A DNA stretch of 64,000 nt, from positions 19,413 to 83,412 of the forward strand of contig CAYQFS010000001.1 of assembly GCA_964416985.1 (NCBI GenBank), given 5' to 3'. The DNA is from an uncultured Candidatus Saccharibacteria bacterium (GTDB lineage: Bacteria > Patescibacteriota > Minisyncoccia > Phycocordibacterales > PALSA-1337). The position numbers and the translations under genes were made by a program. Numbering within the stretch: position 1 is the first letter of the stretch; the number at the start of each line of letters is the position of its first letter. Under the pieces are notes generated by a model. The model did no database searches, was not told where the DNA came from, and worked only from the letters and a program-made list of their open reading frames with translations. Positions 10,193-56,139 of the stretch are shown one piece after another.

Positions 10193-10194
10193 AA

Positions 10195-11208: not shown

Positions 11209-11261
11209 TCCCCCTATTTTACCACGATATTTCATTATTCTGACAAAGAGATTTCCTCAGT

Positions 11262-11687: not shown

Positions 11688-11693
11688 ACCCCT

Positions 11694-13523: not shown

Positions 13524-13524
13524 A

Positions 13525-14157: not shown

Positions 14158-14159
14158 AA

Positions 14160-14585: not shown

Positions 14586-14600
14586 GTGTTCATTATAGCA

Positions 14601-17232: not shown

Positions 17233-17238
17233 GTAATG

Positions 17239-18846: not shown

Positions 18847-18847
18847 A

Positions 18848-28445: not shown

Positions 28446-29408
28446 ATGTCGTACAATCTCGCGGAGCTTAAAAATGAATTTCTCCAGTACGTTGAGATAG
28501 AAAAAGGCCGAAGTTTGAGTACCGTAAGGAATTATGACCATTACCTCACTCGTTTTCTTGATTATACAAAGGCAAAGAACCCAAAAGACATAAGTGACTC
28601 TGTTTTGCGTGACTATCGTCTCTGGCTCAACCGCCAGGAGGCCCGAAGGGAGAAAGGAGCATCTGCGACCACTATAAAGAAGCGTACACAGAACTATTAC
28701 CTCATTGCCTTACGGGCTTTTCTTAAATATCTGGCAAAAAGAGGTGTCGATTCCCTTCCTGGAGAAAGAATTGAGCTCGCAAAGGTACCTGAAAGATCCC
28801 TCGATCTCATTTCTATCGAGGAATTACATCGTTTTCTCGAAGCTCCGGATACCTCAACCCTTCGGGGTCTTCGAGATAGGGCAATGTTCGAGCTTCTTTT
28901 CTCTACCGGACTCCGCGTTTCTGAGCTTTGTTCCCTTCCTCGGGATTTGAACCTCAAGCTCGATGAATTCTCTATTCGAGGTAAGGGAGAGAAAGTTCGA
29001 GTTGTTTTCCTCTCTGATGATGCAAAGAAATGGGTAAAAACGTATCTCGATAAGAGAAAAGACATGGATGATGCCCTTTTTATCCAGATTTTGGGTTCAA
29101 AAAAGGACGGTGGAGCAAAAAATCCAAAGCTTGCCCAAGGAAAAAGAGATTCTATGAGGCTCACTCCCCGTTCTGTCGAGAGAATTGTTAAATTCTATGC
29201 TATCAAGGCGGGAATTTCAAAAAAAGTCACCCCTCACGTCATTCGACACAGTTTTGCAACTGATTTACTTAGGAACGGAGCTGATCTCCGCTCAGTGCAG
29301 ATGCTTTTGGGACATGCAAACATAGGAACAACTCAGATTTATACCCATGTGACGGATAGTGAACTAAGAAAGATACATAAGAAGTTTCATAGAAAATCAG
29401 GAGAGTAG
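28446..29408 (+). CDS. tyrosine recombinase XerC/XerD family
   Basis: 320 aa; catalytic R..H..R..Y region HVIRHSFATDLLRNGADLRSVQMLLGHANIGTTQIYTHV. Confidence 0.85.
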   Translation: MSYNLAELKNEFLQYVEIEKGRSLSTVRNYDHYLTRFLDYTKAKNPKDISDSVLRDYRLWLNRQEARREKGASATTIKKRTQNYYLIALRAFLKYLAKRGVDSLPGERIELAKVPERSLDLISIEELHRFLEAPDTSTLRGLRDRAMFELLFSTGLRVSELCSLPRDLNLKLDEFSIRGKGEKVRVVFLSDDAKKWVKTYLDKRKDMDDALFIQILGSKKDGGAKNPKLAQGKRDSMRLTPRSVERIVKFYAIKAGISKKVTPHVIRHSFATDLLRNGADLRSVQMLLGHANIGTTQIYTHVTDSELRKIHKKFHRKSGE

Positions 29409-32868: not shown

Positions 32869-32943
32869 GCGCCCGTAGTGAAATGGATATCATACCGGTC
32901 TTCGGAACCGTTGTTGGGGGTTCGAATCCCTCCGGGCGCACCA
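32869..32943 (+). tRNA. tRNA-Arg (anticodon TCG), CCA encoded
   Basis: Cloverleaf by hand: acceptor GCGCCCG/CGGGCGC, D-stem GTGA/TCAT, anticodon loop CTTCGGA, T-loop TTCGAAT; one mismatch at base of anticodon stem. Confidence 0.7.
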
Positions 32944-32944
32944 T

Positions 32945-33015
32945 GCGGGTATGGTTTAGTGGTAGAATGCGTCCTTGCCAAGGACGAGACGGGAGTTCGA
33001 TTCTCCCTACCCGCA
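32945..33015 (+). tRNA. tRNA-Gly (anticodon GCC)
   Basis: Acceptor GCGGGTA/TACCCGC, anticodon arm CGTCC-TTGCCAA-GGACG, T-loop TTCGATT; 71 nt. Confidence 0.85.
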
Positions 33016-33115
33016 CAGCGACACAATTGAGAGACATTCTGTGGAAAATTGTGGATAACTCTGTGGACAGTGTTTATAAGAGACAAAATATATGGCCTAT
33101 ATGCGTCTTTAATAT

Positions 33116-33502
33116 GTGTTTCACGTGAAAATACTAACTACTAAAGAAAGGGGAGATATTGGAGAAAAAATTGCTTCTGAATGGCTAAGTAACAAGGGTT
33201 TTCTTGTTATTGAAAGAAATTATAGGAAGAAGTGGGGAGAGATTGATATTGTAGCCGCCAAGGACAAAATCATTCATTTTATTGAGGTTAAGAGCGTATC
33301 TGGTGGGGGAGGTGGGGGATACAGACCAGAAGACAATGTCCATGAAATAAAGCAAAAACGTCTTAGAAGGACCATTCAGACCTTCCTTGCTGAAAGGAAA
33401 TACTCCTCTGAAGCTGTGTTTCAGTTTCATATCATGGCCATTTACATGGATGATGAGACGAGAAAGGCTCGGGTGGAATTCGTGGAGAATATTATTCTCT
33501 AA
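33116..33502 (+). CDS. YraN/UPF0102-family endonuclease-like protein
   Basis: 128 aa; GEKIASEWLSNKGFLVIERNYR...GEIDIVA...IHFIEVK pattern. Confidence 0.75.
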   Translation: MFHVKILTTKERGDIGEKIASEWLSNKGFLVIERNYRKKWGEIDIVAAKDKIIHFIEVKSVSGGGGGGYRPEDNVHEIKQKRLRRTIQTFLAERKYSSEAVFQFHIMAIYMDDETRKARVEFVENIIL

Positions 33503-33549
33503 GAAATTATGGAGTTTTGAAGGTCTGTATGCTAGTATGGTGAAGTTAT

Positions 33550-33625
33550 CGGAGCGTGGTGTAACGGCTAACATTCCTGTTTTGGGAACAGGCGACTCCG
33601 GGTTCGAATCCCGGCGCTCCGACCA
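33550..33625 (+). tRNA. tRNA-Pro (anticodon TGG), CCA encoded
   Basis: Acceptor CGGAGCG/CGCTCCG, anticodon arm CCTGT-TTTGGGA-ACAGG, T-loop TTCGAAT. Confidence 0.85.
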
Positions 33626-35051: not shown

Positions 35052-35125
35052 GCGGGACTAGTTTATCGGTAAAATAACAGTTTTCCAAACTGTGGTGGGG
35101 GGTTCGACTCCCCCGTCCCGCACCA
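35052..35125 (+). tRNA. tRNA-Gly (anticodon TCC), CCA encoded
   Basis: Acceptor GCGGGAC/GTCCCGC, anticodon arm ACAGT-TTTCCAA-ACTGT, T-loop TTCGACT. Confidence 0.8.
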
Positions 35126-35708: not shown

Positions 35709-36464
35709 CTAGTCATGATTCCAAATATAATCGAACATTATTCTAAAGGTCTCAGAGATGTATTTACTTTCTATTACGATTGTTAAAATCGTTTCCTTAA
35801 AATTTGTGATAGACACTTTATCCCCATAAATAATTATCTGAGCCGGAATATTTAATTTTTCCGTGGGAACCTTTTTTCTAGTGATGAGATATTTTTCATC
35901 TTCCTCTATCGGGGTTGCGACTGACTGAATATCTGAATGAGGGGCAATAGCCTTTGTCCGGATATTTTGTGCAACTTGTTTTTCTATCTGTTCCTTTATT
36001 AAATGAAGAATTTCCTGGCGACCCTCTTTTATCGGAGAGCTCATTACTAAAATATCCTGACCTATTTCGAGGATTTCACTGTGTACTTTTTCTACACCCC
36101 CTACTCCTTCGTAGAACTGAATATTTGGTTTACCAAACAATGCATTAAATTCTGATGATAAACTACCGAATATCGTATTGAAATCCGAAAAGGCATGATT
36201 GAGACTTTGTTTCTTCACCTCGACCATGTTCTTGATATTTCTAGGGTGTTTAGGCAAGAAAAGGGCTATTTTCCCGATATCCTCCCGTTTTTCTATTAGA
36301 TCTAGGTCTATAAGTTGGTCGATAATCTTATAGGTAAGTGCTCTGCCAATTCCTGTTTTTGATGAAATAGACTTTGCTGAAGAGAAGCCATTGCTTAAAA
36401 GATGGACATATATTTTTGCTTGATCAAGGCTCAGTCCACAGTCTACTAGTATTTTTTCATTCAT
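35709..36464 (-). CDS. TrmB-family HTH transcriptional regulator
   Basis: 251 aa; N-terminal winged HTH LSLDQAKIYVHLLSNGFSSAKSISSKTGIGRALTYKIIDQLIDLDLIEK. Confidence 0.6.
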   Translation of the reverse strand: MNEKILVDCGLSLDQAKIYVHLLSNGFSSAKSISSKTGIGRALTYKIIDQLIDLDLIEKREDIGKIALFLPKHPRNIKNMVEVKKQSLNHAFSDFNTIFGSLSSEFNALFGKPNIQFYEGVGGVEKVHSEILEIGQDILVMSSPIKEGRQEILHLIKEQIEKQVAQNIRTKAIAPHSDIQSVATPIEEDEKYLITRKKVPTEKLNIPAQIIIYGDKVSITNFKETILTIVIESKYISETFRIMFDYIWNHD

Positions 36465-36563
36465 TTTGTTACAAGATTATGACAATAATAGGCTTATTTA
36501 ATAAGGATACTACAAAATTCGTTATATTACAAGGATTTATGTTGGTAGAAAAGGTACAATAGA

Positions 36564-36591
36564 TTGACAAATCTATTTAATATGCTATGAT
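36564..36591 (+). promoter_or_regulatory. consensus sigma70 promoter driving the GC-rich island operon
   Basis: TTGACA (36564-36569), 16-nt spacer, TATGAT (36586-36591); a second TTGACA at 36592. Confidence 0.5.
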
Positions 36592-36656
36592 TGACATCAG
36601 AACGATAGATATGGGATGCATAACGCACCGCTATTGTTGTCAGAAAGACTTGACCT

Positions 36657-36974
36657 ATGAAAATTCTTAACTCGTTTTCTCTCAACATGCTCCAAAACCT
36701 TGACGGTGAGGTCACTCACAAAGTGATCCCCCTTGAAGAGGCCAAGGAATGGGCCCGGGTTGGTGTCCTTGAATCCACCGTTGGTCATGCCGACACAGCT
36801 GCGATCTTTGGATCGCAACTAGACTTGGATGTTCCTGCGGTTCGGAGTACCATCTCTTTATCGAAAGGAGATATGGTACTGGTAGGTCAATACCGCGGAC
36901 CACGGTTGGCTGAGGGGGCGAAGACGCTTCCTGATGGAGCGGGTATTGTCTGGATCTTGCTTACGGTTAAGTAA
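36657..36974 (+). CDS. DUF1874 (STIV B116 / AcrIII-1 / Crn2-like) cyclic tetra-adenylate ring nuclease
   Basis: 105 aa; N-terminal LNSFSLNML, GH motif ESTVGHADTAAIFGSQLD, C-terminal RSTISLSKGDMVLVGQYRGPRLAEGAK (R..I.L..D..V.Q..RL.EG pattern), recalled from DUF1874/AcrIII-1 family members; 55-60% GC vs ~40% host. Confidence 0.65.
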   Translation: MKILNSFSLNMLQNLDGEVTHKVIPLEEAKEWARVGVLESTVGHADTAAIFGSQLDLDVPAVRSTISLSKGDMVLVGQYRGPRLAEGAKTLPDGAGIVWILLTVK

Positions 36975-37029
36975 GTGGGACAGGTCGAAAACCTGAACAA
37001 AAATTTCCTCTGCGCGTTGAGTGAACGCG

Positions 37030-37082
37030 CTGCTTCTCGGAATGTGTATTCCGACTGATGAGTCCGAAAGGACGAAAAGCAG
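37030..37082 (+). ncRNA. hammerhead self-cleaving ribozyme (type III, open helix III)
   Basis: Helix III CUGCUU/AAGCAG; cleavage UC at 37035-37036; helix I UCGGAAU-GUGU-AUUCCGA; core CUGAUGA; helix II GUCC-GAAA-GGAC; core GAAA; every conserved core nucleotide present. Confidence 0.75.
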
Positions 37083-37264
37083 AAGTTCTTTAAATACAAT
37101 TTGGCAGATGAAGTGTTTGAATGCAGATTTAAATATCTATCACACACTCCATCTGCTAAATGAGCTACATAAAAGCGACCTCAACGAGGAGTACAGACGA
37201 TTAAAACAGGGTTTATGAAAATAAACTTTGGTCGTCATGTTGCATCAATAGATGGGATTCAGTT

Positions 37265-37810
37265 ATGACAAATATTGTTGAAAAAATTCTCTCGGTAAGG
37301 GTGATGCTCGTGTCTGGTTTAATCATCGGAGTTCTCTGTGCCTTAACAGGTGCGTGGAATTATGTTGAACCAATGACCGGTATCGCAACCCTTGCGGTCG
37401 CAGGAGCTGTCTGGTTCCAGACCCGTAAGGCAGCCAAGGCTGTCTACGCCGATAACGGAGACGGTAGCTGGGTGGTCGCTCTCGAGGTTGGACGACCGGT
37501 GTCCGAAGCTGTCAAAAAACAGTTCGGGCAACTCGACTGTTTCATCAAGTGTGAGGAAATCATCAAGGGGCACACTCTGGTGCTTCCTGAACACTATGAA
37601 GCTCTGACGAAAGCAGTTTACGCTGCTGTCTGTCAGGGTCAGGGGAAGAATATTCACCTGATCATGTCGGGACCGATTGCCTTGTCAGTTTTGGTTGGAC
37701 AGCTCATCGGTCTTATGCACTTCCAGATCACGGTGTATCAATACACGCCGTCGTCAGGAACGTATGAGGCGATGCCAAGGCCGACTCGAGATTGGCTCGA
37801 GCATCGTTGA
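37265..37810 (+). CDS. 2-TM membrane protein with C-terminal Rossmann-like alpha/beta domain (candidate nucleotide-binding effector)
   Basis: 181 aa; TM1 VMLVSGLIIGVLCALTGAW, TM2 MTGIATLAVAGAVWF; beta-alpha-beta pattern SWVVALEV / NIHLIMSGPIALSVLVGQLIG / HFQITVYQY; GC ~55%. Confidence 0.5.
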   Translation: MTNIVEKILSVRVMLVSGLIIGVLCALTGAWNYVEPMTGIATLAVAGAVWFQTRKAAKAVYADNGDGSWVVALEVGRPVSEAVKKQFGQLDCFIKCEEIIKGHTLVLPEHYEALTKAVYAAVCQGQGKNIHLIMSGPIALSVLVGQLIGLMHFQITVYQYTPSSGTYEAMPRPTRDWLEHR

Positions 37811-38110
37811 AGGTTGCGAAGAGGGAATGGACATCAACATTCCCTCCCTTATCAGATTCAGCATCTTGGTATGATGAATCTGTAGGGGAAATAATGTTCT
37901 TTAGAATTTTATGAGATGGCCAGTTCCTGCTAGTGAGGAATTGGCAAAGGATCTACTCCGCAGCGTGATGAGCGATCATCAGCGTAAGGAGTGGTACAGA
38001 TCCATGTTCAAGGATTAGCCTACCCTTGAACACTTCATTGAGTCCACTGAGTGAAAGATTCTCGTGGGTTCATAGAGTAAGAGGAATTTTGAAAAAATAA
38101 AGGACACTTT

Positions 38111-38383
38111 ATGGAGGCAATGGTTTTAAGCATTCCTGCTAAGGGTGCTGAAATTCAGGAAATCAAAGGGGTTAAGTACCTCGTTGCTAGACTGGATGAG
38201 CAGAAAACCTGCATGGAGTATGCCGCCGAGCTAAGGAAAGGAAAACCTGTTGTGATTCCCGCATCAAAACGCGGACACTTAACAGGAATTCTAAAGAAGG
38301 AATCTATTTTCACCACGCATTCTACTGCCCCTGGTGGACAATGGGTAACCTTCGTTCCTTGCGAAAAGCGCGATTTCAAGTAG
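38111..38383 (+). CDS. hypothetical 90-aa protein, last gene of island
   Basis: ORF with no recognisable motif; GC-rich like neighbours. Confidence 0.35.
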   Translation: MEAMVLSIPAKGAEIQEIKGVKYLVARLDEQKTCMEYAAELRKGKPVVIPASKRGHLTGILKKESIFTTHSTAPGGQWVTFVPCEKRDFK

Positions 38384-38467
38384 TGACTGCCAAAGGATCA
38401 CTCTAACCTTTGAATTAGAAGAGTGTAGTTGTCACCGTACAAAAATGGTGAGATGGCTGCAGGCTAC

Positions 38468-38495
38468 CGTGCGAAAGTGCGGTTTTGTTTTGTCC
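38468..38495 (+). terminator. rho-independent terminator of island operon
   Basis: ccgtgcGAAAgtgcgg hairpin followed by ttttgttttg. Confidence 0.5.
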
Positions 38496-38502
38496 AAAAA
38501 CA

Positions 38503-38530
38503 AAAAACCACCCTAAGGTGGTCTTTTGTT
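38503..38530 (-). terminator. rho-independent terminator of hup (near-identical to 35677-35706 element)
   Basis: aaaaaacCACCctaaGGTGGtcttttgttt; on - strand hairpin followed by TTTTTTGTTTTTGG. Confidence 0.6.
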
Positions 38531-38555
38531 TAATAAGATCTCGATCGAGAGTTTA

Positions 38556-38828
38556 TTATTTTACTGCATCCTTTAAAGCCTTTGCAGCTCTGAATTTTGG
38601 CACCTTCATGGCTGGCACCTGAATAGATGCTCCCGTGCGAGGGTTTCGTGCCTCTCGCGCTGCTCGCTGCTTTACTGAGAAGATACCGAGTCCTGCGATA
38701 GAAACTTCCTCTCCTTTCTTCAAAGAGTTGACGATTCCATTGAGCATTGCCTCAACAGCCTGCTCTGCCTGGACCTTTGTACCTCCCAAAACTGCGTGTA
38801 CTGCGTCTACGATTCCTGCTTTGTTCAT
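38556..38828 (-). CDS. hup: HU-family DNA-binding protein
   Basis: [11 protein letters not shown]...[44 protein letters not shown]; start taken at internal Met (ORF-track start 38903 adds atypical 25-aa extension). Confidence 0.85.
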   Translation of the reverse strand: [90 protein letters not shown]

Positions 38829-38951
38829 AGTTTTTGTAATTACTAATAATACCTCCTTACTCGTTGCGCGAGAGCGCTTTGAGTACCTAACCTCATAATT
38901 CATTATATAACAAGGGTTTTTTGGCGCAATAGGGGTAAAATAAGGACACGA

Positions 38952-40481
38952 TTATCGAGCAAACTCAATAGCACGGGTTTCTCGGATGATTGTAACCTTG
39001 ATTTCTCCCGGATATTTGAGATCTTTCTCTATTTTTAGGGCTATATCTCGAGCCATATTTCGTGCTTCGAGGTCAGTGACGGCCTCTGGAGTGACAAAAA
39101 TACGTATTTCTCTACCCGCCTGGAGGGCATAGGACTTCTCGACTCCGGGGAAGCCATTTGCGATAGCTTCTAGATCCCCAAGGCGTTTTAGGTAGTTCTC
39201 AATACTATCTCGTCGTGCTCCTGGACGTGCTCCTGAGATGGCGTCTGCAGCCTGGACAATACGTGATTCTACTGTCTCGTAAGGATATTCTTCATGATGA
39301 GCCTGCATTGCTTTAACAATCTCCTCACTTGCTCCAAATTTCTGGAGGATTCGTCGACCGATTTCTACATGTGTACCGACGACTTCATGGTCGAGGGCCT
39401 TACCGAGGTCATGGAGAAGGGCACCAGCCTTTGCTACAGCTACATTTGCCTTTATTTCTTCCGCTATCATGCCGGCAATGTGCGACATCTCAATAGAGTG
39501 CTGGAGGACGTTCTGGCCATAGCTTGTTCTAAAATGGAGGCGTCCAAGGATGAGGAGGATTCGAGGATCGAGACCGATCACTCCACACTCATAGGCTGCT
39601 TGCTCACCCTTTTCCTTAATTGTTTTGTTGATGCTTGCCTGAGCCTCTGAAACGACTTTCTCGATCTTTGCAGGCTGAATACGTCCGTCCTTGATGAGTT
39701 CTTCAAGGGCAACTCGGGCAACATGGCGTCGTACTGGATCAAATGAGGAAATGGTGATGTTTCCAGGAGTGTCATCAACAATCACTTCAACCCCGGTCAT
39801 TCTTTCAAATGCCTTGATATTTCGTCCTTCCTTTCCGATTATCTTTCCCTTAATTTCATCATTTGGAATGGTTACTGATGTCGACATGACGTCGGAGGCC
39901 ACAGAGTTTGCGAGGCGCTGGATTGATGTTGCAAGAATTGATTTTGCTTTTTCTTCAAGTATTTCCTCTCCAGACTGTTCGAGTTTCTGAATGCGTACGA
40001 GAATGTCCTGCTCGGAATTTTTCTCAACTGTTTTCAAAAGAGACTGCTTTGCTTCATCCTTGTTCATGCCAGCAATCTTCTCGAGAGCCTGAGCCTTCTC
40101 GGCTTCGAGAGCATCCGCTTTTTCTTTAATGATTTTTATTTCAGCTACCTTTTGCTTTATGAGTTCAACTTCTTTGTCGATATCCGCCTGACGCTTATCG
40201 AGAAAATCCTCCTTTTTGATAAGGCGAGTTTCGATCTGTTGTATTTTTTCTTCTTTTTCCTTGATCTCCTTCTGGCTTTTCTCGAGGAGCATCTTTCCTT
40301 CAACCTCTGCTGCTTCGGTAATTTTCTTCGCTTCTTCCTTTGCTGCGAGACTCATCTCCTTTATCTCAATTTCCATCGATCCCTTTTTTCCAAGAGAGAT
40401 TATGAGGCGGAGATAGTAACCAATTCCGAGTCCCGCAAAACCTGCAAGGGCGAGAAGCAGTGCGACTAATTTTAATGACAT
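38952..40481 (-). CDS. rny: ribonuclease Y
   Basis: 509 aa; N-terminal TM, coiled coil, KH (IGKEGRNIKAFE), HD (HSIEMSHIAG...HDLGK). Confidence 0.9.
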   Translation of the reverse strand: MSLKLVALLLALAGFAGLGIGYYLRLIISLGKKGSMEIEIKEMSLAAKEEAKKITEAAEVEGKMLLEKSQKEIKEKEEKIQQIETRLIKKEDFLDKRQADIDKEVELIKQKVAEIKIIKEKADALEAEKAQALEKIAGMNKDEAKQSLLKTVEKNSEQDILVRIQKLEQSGEEILEEKAKSILATSIQRLANSVASDVMSTSVTIPNDEIKGKIIGKEGRNIKAFERMTGVEVIVDDTPGNITISSFDPVRRHVARVALEELIKDGRIQPAKIEKVVSEAQASINKTIKEKGEQAAYECGVIGLDPRILLILGRLHFRTSYGQNVLQHSIEMSHIAGMIAEEIKANVAVAKAGALLHDLGKALDHEVVGTHVEIGRRILQKFGASEEIVKAMQAHHEEYPYETVESRIVQAADAISGARPGARRDSIENYLKRLGDLEAIANGFPGVEKSYALQAGREIRIFVTPEAVTDLEARNMARDIALKIEKDLKYPGEIKVTIIRETRAIEFAR

Positions 40482-49262: not shown

Positions 49263-51008
49263 ATGTTCATTGAAGACTCCCAGCTCAATAAATTTATTCT
49301 TGATTCAAACCTTGTTTCAGAGGCTGATCTTCTGGCTGCAGAGAGCCAAGCGGAGGAAAAAGGGGTGCGTCTTGGGGACGTGCTTGTCAGTTCAGGCAAG
49401 ATTACCGAGGATAATCTTCGCAGAATGCAGGCCTATGTTCTTGGAATTCCTTTCGTCGACCTCAAGGATAAGAAAATACCCTTTGAAACACTCTCTCTTA
49501 TCCCTGAACCAGTAGCTCGAACGCACAATATTGTAGCGTTCAAGAAAAACGACGACTCTCTCGAAGTGGCGATGCTCGACGTCGACGACCTTTCGGCAAT
49601 CGATTTCATAAAAAAGAAGGTAAATCTAAAGATTCTTGCCAGACTTACAGATACCGAGTCGATCAAGAACGCAATTGTTCAGTATCAAAAAAGCCTTAAA
49701 GCGGAGTTCGGGGACATTATTCAAAAAGAATCCGAGACACTTAAAACTATTGCTGAGGAGAATGGGAACACTGCTTCGGAAGAGGATCTAAAAAAGATTG
49801 CTGAGGATTTGCCAGTAGTACGTATTGTCGATACGCTTTTGAAGCACGCCATTATCCAAAATGCTTCTGATATCCATATTGAACCAATGGATACAGAACT
49901 TCTTGTTCGATACCGTATTGATGGACTTCTTCATGATGCCATGGTTTTGCCAAAGAATGCTGAGCCTTCGATCACTGCCCGTATTAAGGTACTCTCAAAC
50001 CTTAAACTCGATGAAAAGCGATTGCCTCAGGACGGGCGATTCAAGATAGAAATGAACAATGAGAAAGTTTCTTTCCGTGTTTCTATCTTGCCGACGTACT
50101 ACGGAGAAAAAACAGTTATGCGACTTCTCCGAGAAAATGTTTCCGGATTTACTCTCGAGTATCTCGCTTTTCATGGGGAAGGACTTGATGCTATTCATCA
50201 TGCTGTGACTCAGACGACGGGAATGATCCTCACCACAGGGCCAACAGGTTCCGGAAAGACGACCACCCTCTATACGATTCTTGATATTTTGAATACTCCG
50301 GATGTAAATATTTCTACCATCGAGGATCCGGTTGAGTATCAAATGAAAAGAATCAACCAGACTCAAGTTAATCCTGATATTGGTTTCTCATTTGCTTCGG
50401 GACTTCGAACATTGGTGCGACAGGACCCAGACATCATCATGGTGGGAGAAATTCGAGATAATGAAACGGCAGCTTTGGCGGTCAATGCTTCTCTCACTGG
50501 ACACCTTGTGCTCTCTACACTTCACACCAACAGTGCCGCAGGGGCAATTCCTCGACTTCTCGATATGAAGATTGAGCCATTTCTTCTTGTTTCGACTATC
50601 AACATTATCATTGCTCAGAGACTTGTCCGACGTCTTTCTGAGAACAAAGAGAAGTATTTTCTTTCAAAGGCCGAACTTGAATCCCTTGGGAAGGCGGTCG
50701 ATCTTGGTCGGGTTTTGAATTTCCTCAAGACTGAAAAAATCATCAGAGAAGATTCCTGGGATAAAATAGCATTTTATAGGGCGGTCCCGGGCAAGGAGGA
50801 TGATGGTTACAAAGGTCGAATTGGAATTCACGAAGTTCTTCGTGTCACTCAGTCGATTCGAGAACTTATTATAAAAGGATCAACAACTGAGGAAATTGAA
50901 GGTCAGGCAAAGAAAGAGGGAATGCTTACGATGATCGAGGATGGAATTTTTAAGGCGGTTCAGGGTCACACCACGATTGAGGAGGTTTTGCGAGTCGTTT
51001 CAGAATAA
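49263..51008 (+). CDS. pilB: type IV pilus assembly ATPase PilB/GspE family
   Basis: 581 aa; GspE N-domain, Walker A TGPTGSGKTTTLY, Asp box, His box. Confidence 0.9.
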   Translation: MFIEDSQLNKFILDSNLVSEADLLAAESQAEEKGVRLGDVLVSSGKITEDNLRRMQAYVLGIPFVDLKDKKIPFETLSLIPEPVARTHNIVAFKKNDDSLEVAMLDVDDLSAIDFIKKKVNLKILARLTDTESIKNAIVQYQKSLKAEFGDIIQKESETLKTIAEENGNTASEEDLKKIAEDLPVVRIVDTLLKHAIIQNASDIHIEPMDTELLVRYRIDGLLHDAMVLPKNAEPSITARIKVLSNLKLDEKRLPQDGRFKIEMNNEKVSFRVSILPTYYGEKTVMRLLRENVSGFTLEYLAFHGEGLDAIHHAVTQTTGMILTTGPTGSGKTTTLYTILDILNTPDVNISTIEDPVEYQMKRINQTQVNPDIGFSFASGLRTLVRQDPDIIMVGEIRDNETAALAVNASLTGHLVLSTLHTNSAAGAIPRLLDMKIEPFLLVSTINIIIAQRLVRRLSENKEKYFLSKAELESLGKAVDLGRVLNFLKTEKIIREDSWDKIAFYRAVPGKEDDGYKGRIGIHEVLRVTQSIRELIIKGSTTEEIEGQAKKEGMLTMIEDGIFKAVQGHTTIEEVLRVVSE

Positions 51009-51014
51009 ATTTTT

Positions 51015-52235
51015 ATGGCACATTTTATTTTTAAAGCAAGAAAATCAGGAGGACAGGTCTACAAAGGCGAGCGGGATGCAAACGACCGCTACGAAATGTA
51101 TCGTATCCTCAAGCAATCCGGAGACGAGGTTCTTTCTGTTGAGGAGAGAAAGGGCTTTTCATTTTCAAAAATCTTTTCGACCTCGATTCCATTTCTAAAT
51201 GGCGTCAAAGCTCACGAGAAAATTATCTTTACGAGAAATCTTGGTTCAATGATCAAGGCCGGTCTTTCAATGTCGAGGGCTCTTACGGTTATGCAGAAGC
51301 AGGGAAAGAGCAAGCAGATAAAGAAGATTATCACTACTCTCATTGAAGAAATTAGCAAAGGAAAGACGTTGAGTGAGGCCATGGGTCTTTTCAAGAATAT
51401 GTTTTCTCCCCTCGTCATCTCGATGGTTCATTCTGGAGAGCAGAGTGGAACTTTGGCAGAGGCACTCAAGGTTGTCTCGACCCAAATGGACAAAAATTAT
51501 ACCCTTCAAAAGAGAATCCGTGGAGCCCTCATGTATCCTGGAATCATCCTTTGCGCAATGATCATTATTGCCATCATTCTTCTTACTTTCATCGTCCCTA
51601 CTCTTATGAAGACATTTTCGGAACTCAATTTGACTCTTCCGGCATCGACGAGGTTCATACTTTGGATAAGCTCGACCATTCAGAATCATGGAATCATTCT
51701 CTTTTTGGCAATTGTTATCATCGCAGGACTTCTCTATATCTGGTCTCGTCAAGAAAATGGAAAGAAGGTGATTCACTATGCTGTTCTTAAAATTCCTGTC
51801 ATTGGAAATTTGATAAAAGAAGTCAATGCTGCTCGTACAGCTCGATCCCTTTCATCTCTTGTTAACTCTGGAGTTGATGTTCTTGAGTCGATCAAGATCA
51901 CAACCGACATTGTTCAAAACGTTCATTATAAGAGAGTCCTCCAGGAGGCAGCGGTGAGTGTTGAGAAAGGAGAACCAATCTCAAAAATATTTACCGAAAA
52001 CGACAAGTTGTATCCTCTCTTTCTTGGTGAAATGATAAGCGTGGGAGAAGAGACAGGAAAAATAGGGGAGATGCTCCTTGGTGTGGCTGTGTATTATGAA
52101 GATGATGTTGATCAGAAGACGAAGGATATGTCGACGATTATCGAACCGGTACTTATGGTATTCATTGCTGCTGCCGTAGGATTTTTTGCTGTCGCCATGA
52201 TTTCTCCTATGTATTCGCTTGTAAATTCACTTTAG
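51015..52235 (+). CDS. pilC: type IV pilus platform protein PilC/GspF family
   Basis: 406 aa; two GspF repeats, 3-4 TM. Confidence 0.9.
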   Translation: MAHFIFKARKSGGQVYKGERDANDRYEMYRILKQSGDEVLSVEERKGFSFSKIFSTSIPFLNGVKAHEKIIFTRNLGSMIKAGLSMSRALTVMQKQGKSKQIKKIITTLIEEISKGKTLSEAMGLFKNMFSPLVISMVHSGEQSGTLAEALKVVSTQMDKNYTLQKRIRGALMYPGIILCAMIIIAIILLTFIVPTLMKTFSELNLTLPASTRFILWISSTIQNHGIILFLAIVIIAGLLYIWSRQENGKKVIHYAVLKIPVIGNLIKEVNAARTARSLSSLVNSGVDVLESIKITTDIVQNVHYKRVLQEAAVSVEKGEPISKIFTENDKLYPLFLGEMISVGEETGKIGEMLLGVAVYYEDDVDQKTKDMSTIIEPVLMVFIAAAVGFFAVAMISPMYSLVNSL

Positions 52236-52238
52236 ATC

Positions 52239-54038
52239 ATGATATCGAAAAAAGGATTCACTCTTCTTGAGGTACTCGTAAGCGCAGCAGTTTTTCTTAT
52301 AATTGCTGTTGCTTTGTATCGTACATACGCAAGTCTTTTCTCTCTCACAAGTGTGACACAGTTTAAGATCCTTGCCCTCAATGCAGCAAATGAGCAGTTT
52401 GAAATTATCCGGAATCTTCCATATGCAGATGTTGGAGAAGTGAACGGAATTCCAAATGGAAAAATTCCTCATTCGCAAACTGTTGTCCGTGGAGGGGTGA
52501 CATTTACTATTACTACAAATATCAGAAACGTCGATCTTCCGTTTGACGGAACTCTTGGAGGGAATCCAAACGATCTTTCACCAGCTGACAATAAACTTGC
52601 CGAGGTTCGTGTTGACTGTGCGACGTGCAAAAATTATGTGCCGATCACACTTACTACAACAGTCTCTCCTAAGAATCTCGAAACCGCTTCGACTAACGGT
52701 GCTCTTTTTATTAAAGTCTTTGACGCCAATGGTCTTCCGGTCTCGGGTGCAACAGTTCGTGTTGTAAATACAAAAGTCACACCAAATATTGTCGTCCAGG
52801 ATGAAACTGATGTAAACGGTATGCTCCAGATCGTCGATGTTCCGCCTGGAGTGCAAGCCTATTCGATTACGGTTTCAAAGTCCGGTTATTCTACTGCTCG
52901 AACATATCCTCCTGGAGGTACTGTCAACGGATATTTAAATCCAACTCCAACCCAGCCTGATTCAACGGTCGTCGTCCAGCAAGTAACACAAGTCAGTTTC
53001 GCTATTGATCGTGTAAGTACCCTTTCATTCAAAAGTGTTTCTCCGACGTGTACTCCAGTTGGCGGTCTCGATTTTAATCTATTTGGATCAAAAACAGTCG
53101 GTGTAGGTATACCAAAATTTATTACAAATCTCGTGACTGACGGAGCAGGGAATTATTCAAGTACGACGATGGAATGGGATTCCTACAATGTCACAGGGAT
53201 CGACACGACATACGATATAGTAGGTATCAATCCACTGAACCTTATTCCTCTAAATCCAAACAGTAACCAAGATGTAAAATTGATCGTCATTCCAAAAGAT
53301 CCGAGAAGCCTTCTCATTACTGTAAAAGACAGCTCGACGTTACTTCCTTTGACGGGAACAACAGTCGACGTCACTGGACCATCTTCATATTCAAGTTCTA
53401 AAGTAACTGATAGGGGATATATAAATCAGACTGATTGGTCAGGGGGAGCTGGGCAGGATATGTACAGCAACCCAAACCAGTATTTTCTCGATAATGCGAG
53501 CGTGGCTGTTGATTCCCCGACGGGCGAAATTAAACTCAGAACCATTTTTGGATCATATGCTCCGTCTGGAACTCTCGAGTCTTCTACGATTGATACCGGT
53601 TCTCCAAGTAACTTTTATAATTTAATCTGGGCGCCAACAGACCAGCCGGTAGCTACGGGTTCAACGAGCCTCAAATTCCAGATTGCTACAAATAAGGAAC
53701 TAACGGCAACATCAACATGGGATTACAAGGGTCCCGACGGGACTTCTGCGACATATTACACTCCCGAAAATTCTGTCATCAACAGCATCCATAATGGAGA
53801 TCAGTACGTTCGTTACAAGGCTTTTCTTTCGACACTTTCTGCGACATCAACACCAAATGTCTCTGATATTGCTTTCACATTTACTTCGTCATGCACACCA
53901 CCAGGACAAGTTGTTTTTTCGGGACTCTCTGCCGGAACATATCATGTGACTGTCTCAAAAAATGGCTATACCACGACACAGATTGATGTTCCTGTATCCT
54001 CTAACTGGACTGAGCAGCAGATAATTCTTGCACCCTAA
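52239..54038 (+). CDS. large prepilin-type (class III signal) pseudopilin with beta-rich extracellular domains
   Basis: MISKKGFTLLEVLVSAAVFLIIAV prepilin cleavage/methylation motif (G|FTLLE); 599 aa. Confidence 0.7.
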   Translation: MISKKGFTLLEVLVSAAVFLIIAVALYRTYASLFSLTSVTQFKILALNAANEQFEIIRNLPYADVGEVNGIPNGKIPHSQTVVRGGVTFTITTNIRNVDLPFDGTLGGNPNDLSPADNKLAEVRVDCATCKNYVPITLTTTVSPKNLETASTNGALFIKVFDANGLPVSGATVRVVNTKVTPNIVVQDETDVNGMLQIVDVPPGVQAYSITVSKSGYSTARTYPPGGTVNGYLNPTPTQPDSTVVVQQVTQVSFAIDRVSTLSFKSVSPTCTPVGGLDFNLFGSKTVGVGIPKFITNLVTDGAGNYSSTTMEWDSYNVTGIDTTYDIVGINPLNLIPLNPNSNQDVKLIVIPKDPRSLLITVKDSSTLLPLTGTTVDVTGPSSYSSSKVTDRGYINQTDWSGGAGQDMYSNPNQYFLDNASVAVDSPTGEIKLRTIFGSYAPSGTLESSTIDTGSPSNFYNLIWAPTDQPVATGSTSLKFQIATNKELTATSTWDYKGPDGTSATYYTPENSVINSIHNGDQYVRYKAFLSTLSATSTPNVSDIAFTFTSSCTPPGQVVFSGLSAGTYHVTVSKNGYTTTQIDVPVSSNWTEQQIILAP

Positions 54039-54670
54039 TGATTTTCATTATGTTTTTTAAAAGGCCACACAAGCATGCAAAAGGATTTACTCTCGTTGAG
54101 ATACTTATTGCTGTCGCCATTTTTATTGTAATTATATACACAGTTGGATCATTGCAGACAAATATTTTGACATATGACAAATATGCGAGCGATGTTATTT
54201 CGAGTGCACAGGATGCGCGAGTGATTCTTCGAAATATTGTCCAGGAACTTCGTTCTTCCAAGACTGGGAACAATGGCTCGTATCCAATTGCCCAAGCAGC
54301 TACAAGCACCATAGTTTTTTATAGCGATATCGATGTTGATGGTCTACAGGAGCAAGTTCGCTACTTCATCAGTTCGAATAATTTGAAGAAAGGAGTAGTA
54401 AAGCCCTCAGGTTCTCCTCTTGGCTATGATGGTGCTGAGACTGTCACGACATTGGCGTATAATATAAAGAATGGGACATCGACTGCTCTCTTTGAGTATT
54501 TCGATAGCAACTACAATGGCACGTCGAGTCCATTGAGCCAGCCGGTAGTCGTCAATGCAGTCCGTCTTGTAAGAATTAATCTTCTCATTGATGCTGATCC
54601 ACGACGATCTCCGATTCCTCGTCTTTATACATCGGATGCCACACTTCGAAATCTTAAAGATAATCTATGA
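54038..54670 (+). CDS. prepilin-type minor pilin
   Basis: KGFTLVEILIAVAIFIVIIY N-terminal motif. Confidence 0.7.
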   Translation: MIFIMFFKRPHKHAKGFTLVEILIAVAIFIVIIYTVGSLQTNILTYDKYASDVISSAQDARVILRNIVQELRSSKTGNNGSYPIAQAATSTIVFYSDIDVDGLQEQVRYFISSNNLKKGVVKPSGSPLGYDGAETVTTLAYNIKNGTSTALFEYFDSNYNGTSSPLSQPVVVNAVRLVRINLLIDADPRRSPIPRLYTSDATLRNLKDNL

Positions 54671-56139
54671 AATATTTTGACAAAAAAATGCAATTTGAAA
54701 CTTCAAAAGGAATCATTCTTTTGAATGTGCTCGTTTTTTCTGTGATCGCGATTATCGTGACTATGGCTCTCATCAACTGGGCAACAGCGACTCTTCGAAG
54801 CTCGAAACAGCTTGGTGCTCGTGAACAGGCATTCCAGATTGCCGAAGCCGGAATCGATTACTATAGATGGCATCTTGCTCATGCCCAGTCTGACTATACA
54901 GATGGGATCTCAACAACTACTACCGGTCCGTTCATCCATGCCTTTAAAGATAAGGATGGAAATGCTCTTGGGCAATATGAACTGACGATCACTCCACCTC
55001 CTATTGGCTCAACAGTCGTAAAAATAAAATCAAAGGGGACTGTCGTCGAAGATCCAAAAGTTTCTCGAACGATTCAGGTGACGCTCGCTATCCCTTCTCT
55101 TGCAAAATATGCTGTTGCCGCAAACGACATTATGAGATTTGGAGAGGGGACAGAGATTTTTGGACCGATTCATTCAAATGACGGAATTCGTTTTGATGGA
55201 ATTGCACACAATGTTATTACCAGTGCAAAAGATAAATATATTGATCCTGATCAAGGAACTCATAACCCTTCATGGTATCAGTTTGGAGTATATACAACGG
55301 TTAATCCAGCTGAGACGAATAATGATACCACTCCTCCAAGTAATGTTCCCAATCGCCCTGACGTCTTTATGGCTGGGCGACAGTTTCCTGTTCCAGCAAT
55401 TGACTTTGTCGGTCTCACAACAAATCTCTCTCAGATGAAGAGTGCTGCTCAATCGAATGGAAGATATTTTGCAGCATCTGGAGCACAGGGGTATTACATT
55501 CTCCTTAAAAATAATGACACCTTCGATCTTTACAAGGTCACGGCTTTGACAAATGCTTCGAATAACTGCACAAATGACAACCAGAATCAAGATAATTGGG
55601 GAACGTGGAGCATTTCAACAAAGACATTTATGGCAAACTACGCCTTTCCTGCAAATGGAATTATTTTTCTTGAGGATCATGTTTGGATTGATGGGAAAAT
55701 AAATACGGCTCGTCTCACCATTGCTGCCGGGAAATTTCCTGATAGTCCCTCAACCCGAAAAAGTATTACTATCAACAAAGATCTTGAGTACACAAATTAT
55801 GATGGTCAGGATACTGTCGCTCTCATCTCACAAGGGGATATTAACGCTGGCCTCTCAAGCGATGATGATATGAGGATTGACGCAGCTCTCATTGCTCAGA
55901 ATGGACGAATTGGCCGCTACTATTATTCAAGCAGATGCGGCACGGGCTACACTAGGACAAAAATTACTCTCTATGGAATGATCGCAAGCAACAAACGCTA
56001 TGGTTTTGCTTACACTGATGGAACAGGCTATCAGGCACGAAGTATCATCTACGATTCAAACCTTTTGTATGCTCCTCCGCCCAACTTTCCTCTTACATCG
56101 AGCCAGTATACAACAATCTCTTGGGATGAAGTTAAGTAG
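54667..56139 (+). CDS. PilX-N-domain minor pilin/pilus assembly protein
   Basis: N-terminal TM then SSKQLGAREQAFQIAEAG (PilX_N-like). Confidence 0.6.
   Translation: MKYFDKKMQFETSKGIILLNVLVFSVIAIIVTMALINWATATLRSSKQLGAREQAFQIAEAGIDYYRWHLAHAQSDYTDGISTTTTGPFIHAFKDKDGNALGQYELTITPPPIGSTVVKIKSKGTVVEDPKVSRTIQVTLAIPSLAKYAVAANDIMRFGEGTEIFGPIHSNDGIRFDGIAHNVITSAKDKYIDPDQGTHNPSWYQFGVYTTVNPAETNNDTTPPSNVPNRPDVFMAGRQFPVPAIDFVGLTTNLSQMKSAAQSNGRYFAASGAQGYYILLKNNDTFDLYKVTALTNASNNCTNDNQNQDNWGTWSISTKTFMANYAFPANGIIFLEDHVWIDGKINTARLTIAAGKFPDSPSTRKSITINKDLEYTNYDGQDTVALISQGDINAGLSSDDDMRIDAALIAQNGRIGRYYYSSRCGTGYTRTKITLYGMIASNKRYGFAYTDGTGYQARSIIYDSNLLYAPPPNFPLTSSQYTTISWDEVK

What the first reader, a model, noticed from the sequence alone, without database searches (positions are those of the whole stretch)
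36564..38500. GC-rich island with its own promoter: ring nuclease, hammerhead ribozyme, TM-Rossmann protein, small ORF, terminator
A 1.9-kb segment at 55-62% GC sits in a ~40% GC chromosome between a TrmB-like regulator and hup. It carries a consensus TTGACA-16-TATGAT promoter and its own terminator, all on one strand. Its first ORF has the N-terminal, GH and C-terminal acidic motifs of DUF1874, the family of STIV B116, the viral anti-CRISPR AcrIII-1 and bacterial Crn2, which cleave cyclic tetra-adenylate. No type III CRISPR or cyclase is visible in the window. The downstream 2TM/Rossmann-like protein is positioned like the membrane cOA effectors (Cam1, Csx23) that such ring nucleases switch off. 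The ensemble looks like an orphan, horizontally acquired cOA-signalling or anti-defence cassette, and I believe it is not described for this kind of organism.
Basis: partly seen in the sequence, partly recalled or inferred. Interest (0 to 1): 0.9.

Follow-up and report, generated by a model that had tools for sequence, protein, structure and literature searches.

The report
Ribozyme-split ring-nuclease and membrane-sensor operon
A small accessory operon in a candidate-phyla-radiation bacterium pairs an enzyme that destroys the antiviral alarm molecule cyclic tetra-adenylate with a membrane protein built to sense such a molecule; a self-cleaving hammerhead ribozyme sits between the two genes, and nothing nearby could make the alarm.

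Summary
Window 36564-38532 is one plus-strand operon. It runs: near-consensus promoter, Crn2/AcrIII-1-type ring nuclease (ORF1), type III hammerhead, structured leader, a protein with a membrane helix pair plus one SAVED-type sensor unit (ORF2), a conserved 90-aa ORF3, and terminators.

The hammerhead belongs to a large family of intergenic hammerheads with very strong covariation. This is the gene-flanking arrangement already described for prophages.

In 23 related loci, mostly CPR MAGs, the gene next to the ORF2 homologue changes family: DUF1874, Csx3, Csx20-like, or another CRISPR-linked small protein. This ties the pair to cA4 signalling. No Cas10, CD-NTase or other cyclase lies in the window, and none recurs in the related loci.

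The operon sits in a variable hotspot beside a TrmBL2-like regulator. GC is 46% for the island and 51% for the two genes, against 42% for the window, not 55-62%.

Verdict: a new variant of a known kind. The signal source is unknown, and defence versus anti-defence is unresolved.

The parts
35709..36464 (-). TrmBL2-like wHTH regulator, transcribed divergently. It has host-like GC (0.36) and is the conserved left flank of the hotspot.
   Evidence: Pfam TrmB 37.4 bits. The family profile matches TrmBL2 (5bpd) over its full length, E=2e-13. A homologue lies upstream on the opposite strand in 15 of 23 ORF2-homologue loci.
36559..36576 (+). Palindrome ATAGATTGACAAATCTAT overlapping the -35 box. It is a candidate operator.
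   Evidence: Read from the sequence. It lies in the block conserved with L017 and L020 up to 36592. Function is inferred.
36564..36591 (+). Sigma-70-type promoter TTGACA-16-TATGAT with an extended -10 TG.
   Evidence: 11 of 12 matches. Homology with relative L017 ends right after the -10 box, so the promoter belongs to the conserved backbone.
36657..36974 (+). ORF1, 105 aa: DUF1874 (Crn2/AcrIII-1 family) ring nuclease.
   Evidence: Pfam PF08960 33.5 bits against 26. PDB profile hits to AFV3-109, SIRV1 gp29/AcrIII-1 and STIV B116. pLDDT 93.7, Foldseek top hit 6SCF with TM 0.81. H44 invariant and E86 at least 90% conserved. 37% identical to the DUF1874 protein of phage THSA-485A.
37012..37030 (+). 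7-bp hairpin with a GAGUG loop just 5' of the ribozyme. It would form the 3' end of the upstream cleavage product.
   Evidence: The stem changes with compensation in L017 (GCGUAUU/AAUACGC and AGCAGU/ACUGCU). An equivalent hairpin precedes all 7 aligned ribozymes.
37030..37082 (+). Type III hammerhead ribozyme. Stem III is 37030-35 with 37077-82. The predicted cleavage is 3' of C37036. Stem I is 37037-43 with 37048-54 (loop GUGU). The core CUGAUGA is 37055-61. Stem II is GUCC-GAAA-GGAC. GAAA is 37074-77.
   Evidence: Rfam RF00008 E=1.2e-7, 43.5 bits. Model R1 gives 76.4 bits. Family covariation: 95.8% of cells paired and score 0.807 against 0.19 in shuffles.
37099..37161 (+). Long hairpin of about 28 bp in the ORF2 leader, nearly invariant among three relatives.
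   Evidence: The region 36975-37270 folds with z=-5.15. The leader is more conserved than the coding sequence. There is almost no covariation, so the structure is only suggested.
37265..37810 (+). ORF2, 181 aa: N-terminal membrane helix pair (about residues 8-31 and 33-60) plus one SAVED-type CARF-like sensor unit (about residues 64-172).
37821..37846 (+). 9-bp hairpin 11 nt after the ORF2 stop, with no U-tract.
   Evidence: Read from the sequence. Homology with relatives ends at about 37815-37819. Function unknown.
38031..38078 (+). Conserved 48-nt element upstream of ORF3.
   Evidence: 92% identical to a stretch upstream of an unrelated 97-aa ORF in L020. It also aligns upstream of the ORF3-like gene in L175.
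38111..38383 (+). ORF3, 90 aa: conserved small protein of unknown function with a good Shine-Dalgarno sequence.
   Evidence: 11 homologue clusters at 62-99% identity. It directly follows DUF1874 in L175 and L180, and probably in L181, where the 105-aa upstream gene has no Pfam record. No Pfam, PADLOC or NCBIfam hit.
38466..38532 (+). Two terminator-like hairpins. The second (38507-38522 plus U-tract) is flanked by an A-tract and could also terminate hup.
38556..38903 (-). hup (HU), the right flank of the hotspot, followed by RNase Y at 38952-40481.
   Evidence: Pfam Bac_DNA_binding 102.6 bits. RNase_Y_N, KH and HD domains. The same flanks are seen in L008, L020, L175 and L179-L181.

Best explanation
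This is an accessory operon in a variable defence-type hotspot, between a TrmBL2-like regulator and hup/rny, of a CPR (Patescibacteria-like) chromosome.

Shown:
- One strong promoter in the conserved backbone precedes three co-oriented cistrons and a terminator, so one transcript is expected.
- ORF1 is a Crn2/AcrIII-1-type ring nuclease with its catalytic residues intact.
- ORF2 is a membrane-anchored protein with a single SAVED-type (CARF-like) nucleotide-sensor unit.
- A canonical type III hammerhead lies between them.

Inferred:
- ORF2 dimerises or oligomerises so that two half-SAVED units form a two-fold pocket for cyclic tetra-adenylate (cA4) or a close relative.
- Ligand binding makes the conserved membrane helices perturb the membrane. 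This gives dormancy or abortive infection, as with Cam1, Csx23 and Cap14.
- ORF1 degrades the ligand, which sets the threshold and resets the switch.
- The hammerhead cuts 3' of C37036. The nuclease mRNA then ends in a hairpin with a 2',3'-cyclic phosphate. The effector mRNA begins with a 5'-OH, the folded ribozyme and a long leader hairpin.
- The two cistrons can then have separate stability and translation, which sets the nuclease-to-effector ratio.
- The TrmBL2-like protein may repress the promoter through the palindrome over the -35 box.
- The ligand is made in trans by something outside the window. Its source is unknown.
For: - Domain and fold assignments.
- ORF2 homologues form a small family: 63 clusters at 90% identity and 98 representatives at 50% among 1.84 billion proteins. 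Motifs GRPxSEA and SGP are invariant, as are membrane-region residues W31, P36 and T53.
- The family is under purifying selection: 95% and 88% protein identity against 85% and 81% DNA identity with L020 and L017.
- Non-orthologous replacement of the partner gene next to ORF2 homologues:
  - DUF1874 in the window and L020.
  - Csx3/Crn3 in L003, L171 and L173, with Pfam 33-50 bits against 21 and PADLOC 3e-17.
  - A Csx3-like 98-aa family next to the homologue in L006, L007 and L011-L013. Only the L011 member was scored against Csx3 (PADLOC 1.4e-6); the L007 member gave no Pfam hit.
  - The MJ1673 family, Csx20-like at 2e-4 to 8e-4, in L017 and L021. MJ_1673 is linked to type III-A systems (PMC3973734).
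  - A CARF-associated small protein in L009, 5e-23.
  - A Csx16-domain protein in L173.
- Crn2, Crn3, Csx16 and Csx20 are all cA4 ring nucleases (PMC12409355).
- The closest SAVED relatives, AcrIII-2 and CalpL, bind cA4 (PMC12751052).
- Hammerhead reality and its intergenic, co-oriented placement.
- Precedent for hammerheads cutting polycistronic prophage RNAs into gene-length pieces: PMC3088659.
- Hotspot and cassette swapping.
Against: - No cOA synthase is in the 64-kb window. None recurs within about 5 kb in 23 related loci. The module has no demonstrated input.
- ORF2 has only half of a SAVED. Its ligand and its oligomeric state are untested.
- The second membrane helix is only moderately hydrophobic.
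- DUF1874 proteins are commoner in viruses than in cells (PMC12409355). An anti-defence origin is therefore plausible.
- The hammerhead is absent from most ORF2-homologue loci, so it is not integral to the protein pair.
- Ribozyme activity, transcript structure and regulation by TrmBL2 are all inferred.
Confidence: 0.55

Rival explanations
1. The pair is an ordinary accessory module of a type III CRISPR-Cas system encoded elsewhere in the same genome. Cas10 makes cA4 on target-RNA recognition, ORF2 is the effector, and ORF1 is the cellular Crn2.
For: All identified partner families (Crn2, Csx3, Csx20-like, Csx16) are type III-associated. The SAVED4 subgroup includes the CRISPR-Lon protease CalpL. 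PMC12409355 notes ring nucleases that may act in trans for another locus.
Against: No cas gene or CRISPR-related Pfam family is in the window. No cas gene recurs near any of 23 related loci; instead the module keeps a TrmBL2/hup/rny context. From my own knowledge, CPR lineages are mostly poor in CRISPR-Cas; I did not test this here.
Confidence: 0.25
2. The cassette is an anti-defence or selfish cargo left by a phage or other mobile element. ORF1 acts as an AcrIII-1-type anti-CRISPR. ORF2 is a decoy or sponge, or a phage-timed membrane protein such as a cA4-triggered holin or an exclusion factor.
For: ORF1 is 37% identical to the DUF1874 protein of phage THSA-485A. DUF1874 is far commoner in phages than in cells. 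GC3 is shifted. This hammerhead type is frequent on viral contigs and typical of prophage operons. ORF2 homologues occur on a 155-kb viral contig (L016) and in the phage-like context of L173. ORF3 directly follows DUF1874 in two other lineages (L175, L180), and probably a third (L181), in an acr-aca-like layout.
Against: No integrase, structural or replication genes are in the island. The same chromosomal slot holds defence-type genes in relatives, namely AbiEii and viperin-like radical SAM enzymes. ORF2 has no match in 50,697 cultured-phage records. A membrane-anchored sensor is an odd design for a sponge.
Confidence: 0.15
3. The cassette is a Panoptes-like guard with inverted logic. A constitutive ligand holds ORF2 silent, and loss of the ligand, for example to a phage sponge or nuclease, fires it.
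For: Panoptes uses a SAVED-type membrane effector, OptE, that is kept off by decoy cyclic nucleotides (PMC12657218, PMC12657230). ORF2 has the same general build.
Against: No mCpol, diadenylate cyclase or other cyclase is adjacent. A co-transcribed ring nuclease would remove the silencing ligand and make the operon suicidal.
Confidence: 0.04

Closest known systems
Crn2 / AcrIII-1 (DUF1874) cA4 ring nucleases, including the self-limiting Csx1-Crn2 fusion
   Same: Same Pfam family, same fold, and conserved catalytic His and Glu. As in Csx1-Crn2, the nuclease is coupled in cis to a predicted cA4-activated effector.
   Different: It is a separate gene rather than a fusion. It is not in a type III CRISPR locus. 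It lies in a CPR chromosome. A ribozyme separates it from the effector.
Membrane effectors of cyclic-oligonucleotide defence: Cam1 (TM-CARF), Csx23, Cap14 (2TM-SAVED, CBASS), OptE (Panoptes)
   Different: ORF2 carries one CARF-like unit of SAVED sequence type rather than a full two-unit SAVED. It has no adjacent Cas10, CD-NTase or mCpol.
AcrIII-2 (viral stand-alone SAVED ring nuclease) and the CalpL SAVED domain
   Same: These are the closest relatives of the ORF2 sensor by sequence and by structure. Both bind cA4.
   Different: Both have two units per chain and are soluble. Whether ORF2 also cleaves its ligand is unknown.
Hammerheads that flank single genes in prophage operons (Perreault et al. 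2011, PMC3088659)
   Same: Co-oriented intergenic hammerheads, often several per operon, between unrelated genes.
   Different: These are type III hammerheads with a fixed AUGUGUAU stem-I top and an RAAA stem-II loop. They punctuate small defence-type cassettes in CPR chromosomes. A hairpin always precedes the cleavage site.

Membership tests
DUF1874 / Crn2-AcrIII-1 ring nuclease | Match to Pfam PF08960 above the gathering score | tested here: met
   33.5 bits against 26. All 41 homologue clusters carry PF08960.
DUF1874 / Crn2-AcrIII-1 ring nuclease | AcrIII-1 fold | tested here: met
   pLDDT 93.7. Foldseek top hits are 6SCF, 2J85, 2X4I and 2J6B with TM 0.77-0.85 and probability 1.0. Csx1-Crn2 entries 8Y7F and 8Y7G also match.
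DUF1874 / Crn2-AcrIII-1 ring nuclease | Catalytic His (GH motif) and Glu (RLxEG motif) | tested here: met
   H44 is invariant and E86 at least 90% conserved. They align with the His of 2X4I, which is mutated to Ala in 6SCF, and with the Glu of RLEEG.
DUF1874 / Crn2-AcrIII-1 ring nuclease | Homodimer that encloses and cleaves cA4 | not testable with these tools
   Only a monomer was modelled. This needs biochemistry.
SAVED sensor domain | Match to curated SAVED models above cut-off | tested here: met
   Pfam PF18145 36.4 bits against 26.2. NCBIfam NF033611 50.3 against 33. PADLOC SAVED4 5e-16.
SAVED sensor domain | Two fused CARF-like units in one chain | tested here: not met
SAVED sensor domain | Binds a cyclic oligonucleotide | not testable with these tools
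   Inferred from ring-nuclease partners and from the closest structures.
Type III hammerhead ribozyme | Conserved core (CUGAUGA, GAAA, U16.1, H17) with three stems, stem III open | tested here: met
   Read from the sequence. Full-length Rfam alignment. 76.4 bits with model R1.
Type III hammerhead ribozyme | Rfam RF00008 gathering score | tested here: not met
   43.5 bits against 48.5, with E=1.2e-7. The shortfall comes from the shorter stem II loop and the longer stem I.
Type III hammerhead ribozyme | Stems supported by covariation among relatives | tested here: met
   60 sequences. 12 of 17 pairs show changes on both sides. 95.8% of cells are paired against 65.7% in shuffles. U16.1 is invariant although it was not part of the search pattern.
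Type III hammerhead ribozyme | Self-cleavage | not testable with these tools
   Needs in vitro transcription or end mapping.
Type III CRISPR-Cas accessory module | cas10/csm/cmr genes or a CRISPR array nearby | tested here: not met
   None in the window. No such family recurs among 92 neighbours of 23 loci.
CBASS | CD-NTase next to the SAVED effector | tested here: not met
Panoptes and related guard systems | Constitutive mCpol or diadenylate cyclase next to the membrane effector | tested here: not met
   The system is described in PMC12657218 and PMC12657230.
Integron-like cassette array | Platform with integrase and promoter, plus cassettes bounded by a repeated site | tested here: inconclusive
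   A conserved promoter platform, swapped cassettes and repeated hammerhead units at junctions are present. There is no adjacent integrase; the nearest tyrosine recombinase is at 28446-29408. There is no evidence of site-specific recombination.

The most novel reading that the evidence does not exclude
CPR bacteria, which largely lack CRISPR, may run a Cas10-independent cyclic-oligoadenylate-type alarm. A membrane 'half-SAVED' effector and an interchangeable ring nuclease would form a portable sensor-and-reset unit. Its ligand would come from an unrecognised source: a novel synthase (perhaps the radical SAM enzyme found beside the effector in 10 of 23 loci), the phage, or the host cell of these epibionts. 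In addition, the repeated hammerhead units would mark the 5' edges of exchangeable, promoterless cassettes behind one platform promoter. They would serve both as RNA-processing sites and as recombination homology, an integron-like layout built on a ribozyme.
Probability: 0.18. Interest if true: 0.85.

Novelty: new variant of a known kind. Interest (0 to 1): 0.6.

Why it matters
Ring nucleases and membrane cOA effectors are known only as parts of type III CRISPR, CBASS or Panoptes loci, each of which carries its own synthase. Here a rare effector family is repeatedly paired with different ring-nuclease families and has no synthase in cis. The family has about 100 representatives among 1.8 billion proteins. 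The lineages that carry it are thought to be poor in CRISPR.

If the pair works as predicted, it points to one of three things: trans-acting cA4 signalling in CPR bacteria, an unknown signal source, or a new anti-defence design.

The single-unit sensor is also a natural intermediate between dimeric CARF and fused SAVED domains.

The ribozyme-punctuated operon offers a clean case for testing what intergenic hammerheads do to the expression of neighbouring cistrons. That question has been open since 2011.

Tried and rejected
- Rfam at gathering thresholds found only four tRNAs. The hammerhead appeared only at E-value thresholds.
- My own descriptor scan for hammerheads was too strict. It missed the copies in L175 and L173 that the covariance model found.
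- I looked for DUF1874 beside the other ORF2 homologues with tblastn and a family HMM. It was found only in the window's clade, plus a weak hit in L008. This led to the finding that the partner family varies.
- The MJ1673 family (PF27247) is not in the Pfam copy available. It has no PDB relative by sequence. Only weak PADLOC Csx20 and Csx15 hits support a ring-nuclease role.
- I tested whether the TrmB-like neighbour has a CARF-like sensor. It is a full-length TrmBL2-type protein, so I rejected that idea.
- The radical SAM neighbours stay far below every NCBIfam cut-off (NrdG2-like, viperin-like, MoaA-like), so they remain unassigned.
- Genes downstream of 125 hammerheads are heterogeneous: helicases, DUF2201, phage genes and housekeeping genes. 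The ribozyme is therefore not a marker of this system.
- The large neighbours of 760-870 aa gave no cyclase domain.
- ORF2 has no match in the cultured-phage collection.
- No second hammerhead lies between ORF2 and ORF3 in the window, even with filters off.
- The Panoptes reading was rejected because there is no cyclase and because a co-transcribed nuclease would be self-defeating.
Full report
**1. What is at the coordinates**

The window is 42.0% GC. The segment 36564-38500 is 46.3% GC, and ORF1 and ORF2 are 50.6% and 51.3% (GC3 0.51 and 0.55). These are the highest values among credible genes in the window. The housekeeping H+-pyrophosphatase gene comes close. Only sub-windows of 200 nt or less reach 57-63%.

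The other listed features are present:
- A TTGACA-16-TATGAT promoter with an extended -10 TG lies at 36564-36591 (11 of 12 matches).
- An 18-nt palindrome lies over the -35 box.
- Three co-oriented ORFs follow, then two terminator-like hairpins at 38466-38532.
- The flanks are a TrmB-family regulator and hup, followed by RNase Y.

**2. ORF1 is a Crn2/AcrIII-1-type ring nuclease**

- It passes Pfam PF08960 (33.5 bits against 26).
- A profile of its 41 homologue clusters hits AFV3-109 (5e-15), SIRV1 gp29/AcrIII-1 (2e-13), STIV B116 (1e-11) and the Crn2 part of Csx1-Crn2.
- The AlphaFold model (pLDDT 93.7) matches AcrIII-1 entry 6SCF best, with TM 0.81.
- H44 is invariant and E86 nearly so. H44 aligns with the residue that is His in wild-type 2X4I and Ala in the 6SCF mutant chain.
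- It is 37% identical to the DUF1874 protein of phage THSA-485A.
- The 105-aa reading, not the 95-aa database call, is correct. The conserved N-terminal motif NxFSxNM starts at residue 5.

**3. The hammerhead**

Positions 37030-37082 form a textbook type III hammerhead. Stem III has 6 bp, followed by U16.1 and C17. Stem I has 7 bp with a GUGU loop. Then come CUGAUGA, the stem II hairpin GUCC-GAAA-GGAC, and GAAA.

Rfam RF00008 aligns it end to end at E=1.2e-7, but at 43.5 bits it falls below the gathering score of 48.5.

An exact-pattern scan found the same variant in at least 120 metagenomic stretches and 28 viral stretches. In 60 distinct copies, 95.8% of cells pair, against 65.7% in shuffles. 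Twelve of 17 pairs change on both sides. U16.1 is invariant although it was not part of the pattern.

A covariance model built from these copies scores the window copy at 76.4 bits. It finds no other copy in the 64 kb.

Across the collected loci the ribozymes are intergenic and co-oriented with their neighbours. The upstream ORF ends a median of 62 nt before the ribozyme, and the next ORF starts a median of 75 nt after it. About 26 loci carry two to four co-oriented copies. The genes downstream are heterogeneous.

This is the arrangement Perreault et al. described for prophages. They showed in vitro that such arrays cut polycistronic RNA into gene-length pieces (PMC3088659). The ribozyme itself is thus a new member of a known kind.

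Two local details are worth noting:
- A hairpin always sits just 5' of stem III, and it covaries between the window and L017.
- The 180-nt leader between the ribozyme and ORF2 holds a hairpin of about 28 bp. It is more conserved than the coding sequence, and the region folds with z=-5.15. Covariation there is too sparse to prove a structure.

**4. ORF2 is a membrane-anchored half-SAVED**

- It passes Pfam SAVED (36.4 bits against 26.2), NCBIfam SAVED (50.3 against 33) and PADLOC SAVED4 (5e-16).
- Only the C-terminal half of each profile is matched.
- The model (pLDDT 82) has two long N-terminal helices. The first is strongly hydrophobic. One alpha/beta unit follows.
- The single domain aligns to either half of AcrIII-2.

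ORF2 therefore fails the two-unit criterion of SAVED. It most likely has to dimerise, which would give a two-fold pocket suited to cA4.

The family is small: 63 clusters at 90% identity and 98 representatives at 50% among 1.84 billion proteins, nearly all 100-300 aa long. The sensor motifs GRPxSEA and SGP are invariant, and so are several membrane-region residues. Protein identity exceeds DNA identity between close relatives, which indicates purifying selection.

**5. Context in relatives**

Named genome hits are CPR MAGs: Uhrbacteria, Magasanikbacteria, Saccharibacteria, Moraniibacteriota and Paceibacterota. There are also a few MAGs labelled Gammaproteobacteria, one Flavobacteriales MAG, and one 155-kb viral contig.

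Among 23 loci:
- A TrmBL2-like regulator lies upstream on the opposite strand in 15.
- A radical SAM enzyme of unassigned type lies beside the ORF2 homologue in 10.

The small gene next to the ORF2 homologue varies by locus:

| Loci | Partner gene | Support |
|---|---|---|
| window, L020 | DUF1874 (Crn2) | |
| L003, L171, L173 | Csx3/Crn3 | above Pfam cut-off; PADLOC 3e-17 |
| L006, L007, L011-L013 | Csx3-like 98-aa family | only L011 scored, PADLOC 1.4e-6; L007 gave no Pfam hit |
| L017, L021 | MJ1673 family, Csx20-like | PADLOC 2e-4 to 8e-4; type III-A-associated in Methanococcales |
| L009 | small protein 'sometimes fused to CARF' | 5e-23 |
| L173 | additional Csx16-domain protein | |

Crn2, Crn3, Csx16 and Csx20 are all cA4 ring nucleases (PMC12409355). 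This non-orthologous replacement is the strongest argument that the membrane sensor responds to cA4 or a close relative, and that nuclease plus sensor is the functional unit.

No Cas10, CD-NTase, GGDEF, DAC or mCpol domain was found in the window. None recurs among 92 neighbouring proteins of the related loci.

**6. A cassette hotspot**

Against relative L017, homology runs through the regulator gene and the promoter and stops right after the -10 box at 36592. It resumes at 36999, which is 25 nt after the ORF1 stop and 27 nt before the ribozyme model match. It ends again at 37819, just after the ORF2 stop. In between, L017 has the MJ1673 gene in place of DUF1874.

Against L020 the break comes after ORF2, and homology resumes at the terminator.

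Other relatives fill the same trmB-hup-rny slot with different small genes, again separated by hammerheads:
- L017: Csx20-like, ribozyme, sensor, variant ribozyme, radical SAM, ribozyme, a 360-aa gene.
- L022: sensor, ribozyme, a 181-aa gene, ribozyme, a 105-aa gene.
- L175: a 128-aa gene, ribozyme, DUF1874, ORF3-like, plus AbiEii.
- L180: DUF1874, ribozyme, ORF3-like.

ORF3 is a real 11-cluster family. It directly follows DUF1874 in two other lineages (L175, L180) and probably a third (L181).

The ribozyme is absent from most ORF2-homologue loci. It is a feature of these lineages' island operons, not of the protein pair.

**7. Most likely mechanism**

One transcript starts at the platform promoter, which the TrmBL2-like protein possibly represses through the palindrome. 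The hammerhead cuts 3' of C37036. The nuclease mRNA then ends in a hairpin, and the effector mRNA starts with a 5'-OH, the folded ribozyme and the leader hairpin. This uncouples their stability and translation.

ORF2 oligomers sense cA4 and disturb the membrane. ORF1 removes cA4, which sets the threshold and resets the switch. The domain identities and the gene order are shown. The ligand, oligomerisation, membrane action, cleavage in vivo and regulation are inferred. The input signal is unknown.

**8. Rivals**

- A type III CRISPR system elsewhere in the genome could supply cA4 (confidence 0.25).
- A phage-derived anti-defence cargo is supported by the viral bias of DUF1874, the phage-type ribozyme and the viral-contig relatives. 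It is weakened by the chromosomal defence-type neighbours and by the membrane anchoring (0.15).
- Panoptes-like inverted logic is unlikely without a cyclase and with a co-transcribed nuclease (0.04).

**9. Novelty and score**

Each part belongs to a known kind. What I did not find in the searched literature is this combination:
- a synthase-less nuclease-plus-sensor unit with swapped nuclease families;
- a single-unit SAVED;
- a conserved TrmBL2-linked hotspot in CPR bacteria;
- hammerheads between the cassettes.

I rate it a new variant of a known kind, with interest 0.6.

Noticed in passing
L050 1-2022 (JAAOEH010007131.1): Hammerheads alternate on both strands with a period of about 1158 nt (478-532 -, 811-865 +, 1636-1690 -, 1970-2022 +). 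This looks like a tandem assembly of a small circular element with ribozymes in both polarities.
   Followed up: no
L154 and L157 (IMG/VR contigs of 366 and 377 nt): These tiny 'viral contigs' carry the same hammerhead variant, with the AUGUGUAU stem-I top and the GUCC-RAAA-GGAC stem II. Their sizes fit plant sobemovirus satellite RNAs, as I recall them. The DNA-encoded bacterial and phage copies are near-twins of these.
   Followed up: no
L004, L008, L009, L011-L014, L016, L017, L174 (for example L017 2574-3602): A radical SAM enzyme sits directly beside the ORF2 homologue in 10 of 23 loci. It is NrdG2-like or viperin-like but far below every curated cut-off. Its role is unexplained. It could be a separate defence gene or part of the signalling.
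   Followed up: partly
window 38031-38078: This 48-nt element upstream of ORF3 is 92% identical to a stretch upstream of an unrelated 97-aa ORF in L020. It also aligns upstream of the ORF3-like gene in L175. It may be a shared leader or a cassette junction.
   Followed up: partly
window 37099-37161: A hairpin of about 28 bp in the ORF2 leader is almost invariant among the window, L020 and L017, while the coding regions are only 81-85% identical. It could be a regulatory RNA, an RNase III site or an antisense element.
   Followed up: partly
window 38111-38383, and L175, L179-L182: ORF3 (90 aa, no known domain) directly follows DUF1874 in L175 and L180, and probably in L181. It is preceded by a hammerhead in L179-L182. 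The layout resembles an acr-aca pair.
   Followed up: partly
L175 5846-6505; L172 1-954: The same hotspot in relatives holds an AbiEii toxin-like gene. One flank has a metallo-beta-lactamase with a weak anti-Pycsar Apyc1 hit.
   Followed up: no
window 9056-19825 and 49263-56139: A type IV secretion or competence-like cluster (TraG-type P-loop ATPase, PrgI) and a type IV pilus cluster (T2SSE, T2SSF, prepilins). From my own knowledge, both are typical of CPR genomes.
   Followed up: no
window 32869-33625 and 35052-35125: Four tRNA genes (Arg-TCG, Gly-GCC, Pro-TGG, Gly-TCC). tRNA-Gly(TCC) lies about 1.4 kb upstream of the island, and a XerC/D-like recombinase is at 28446-29408. No link to the island was found.
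   Followed up: no
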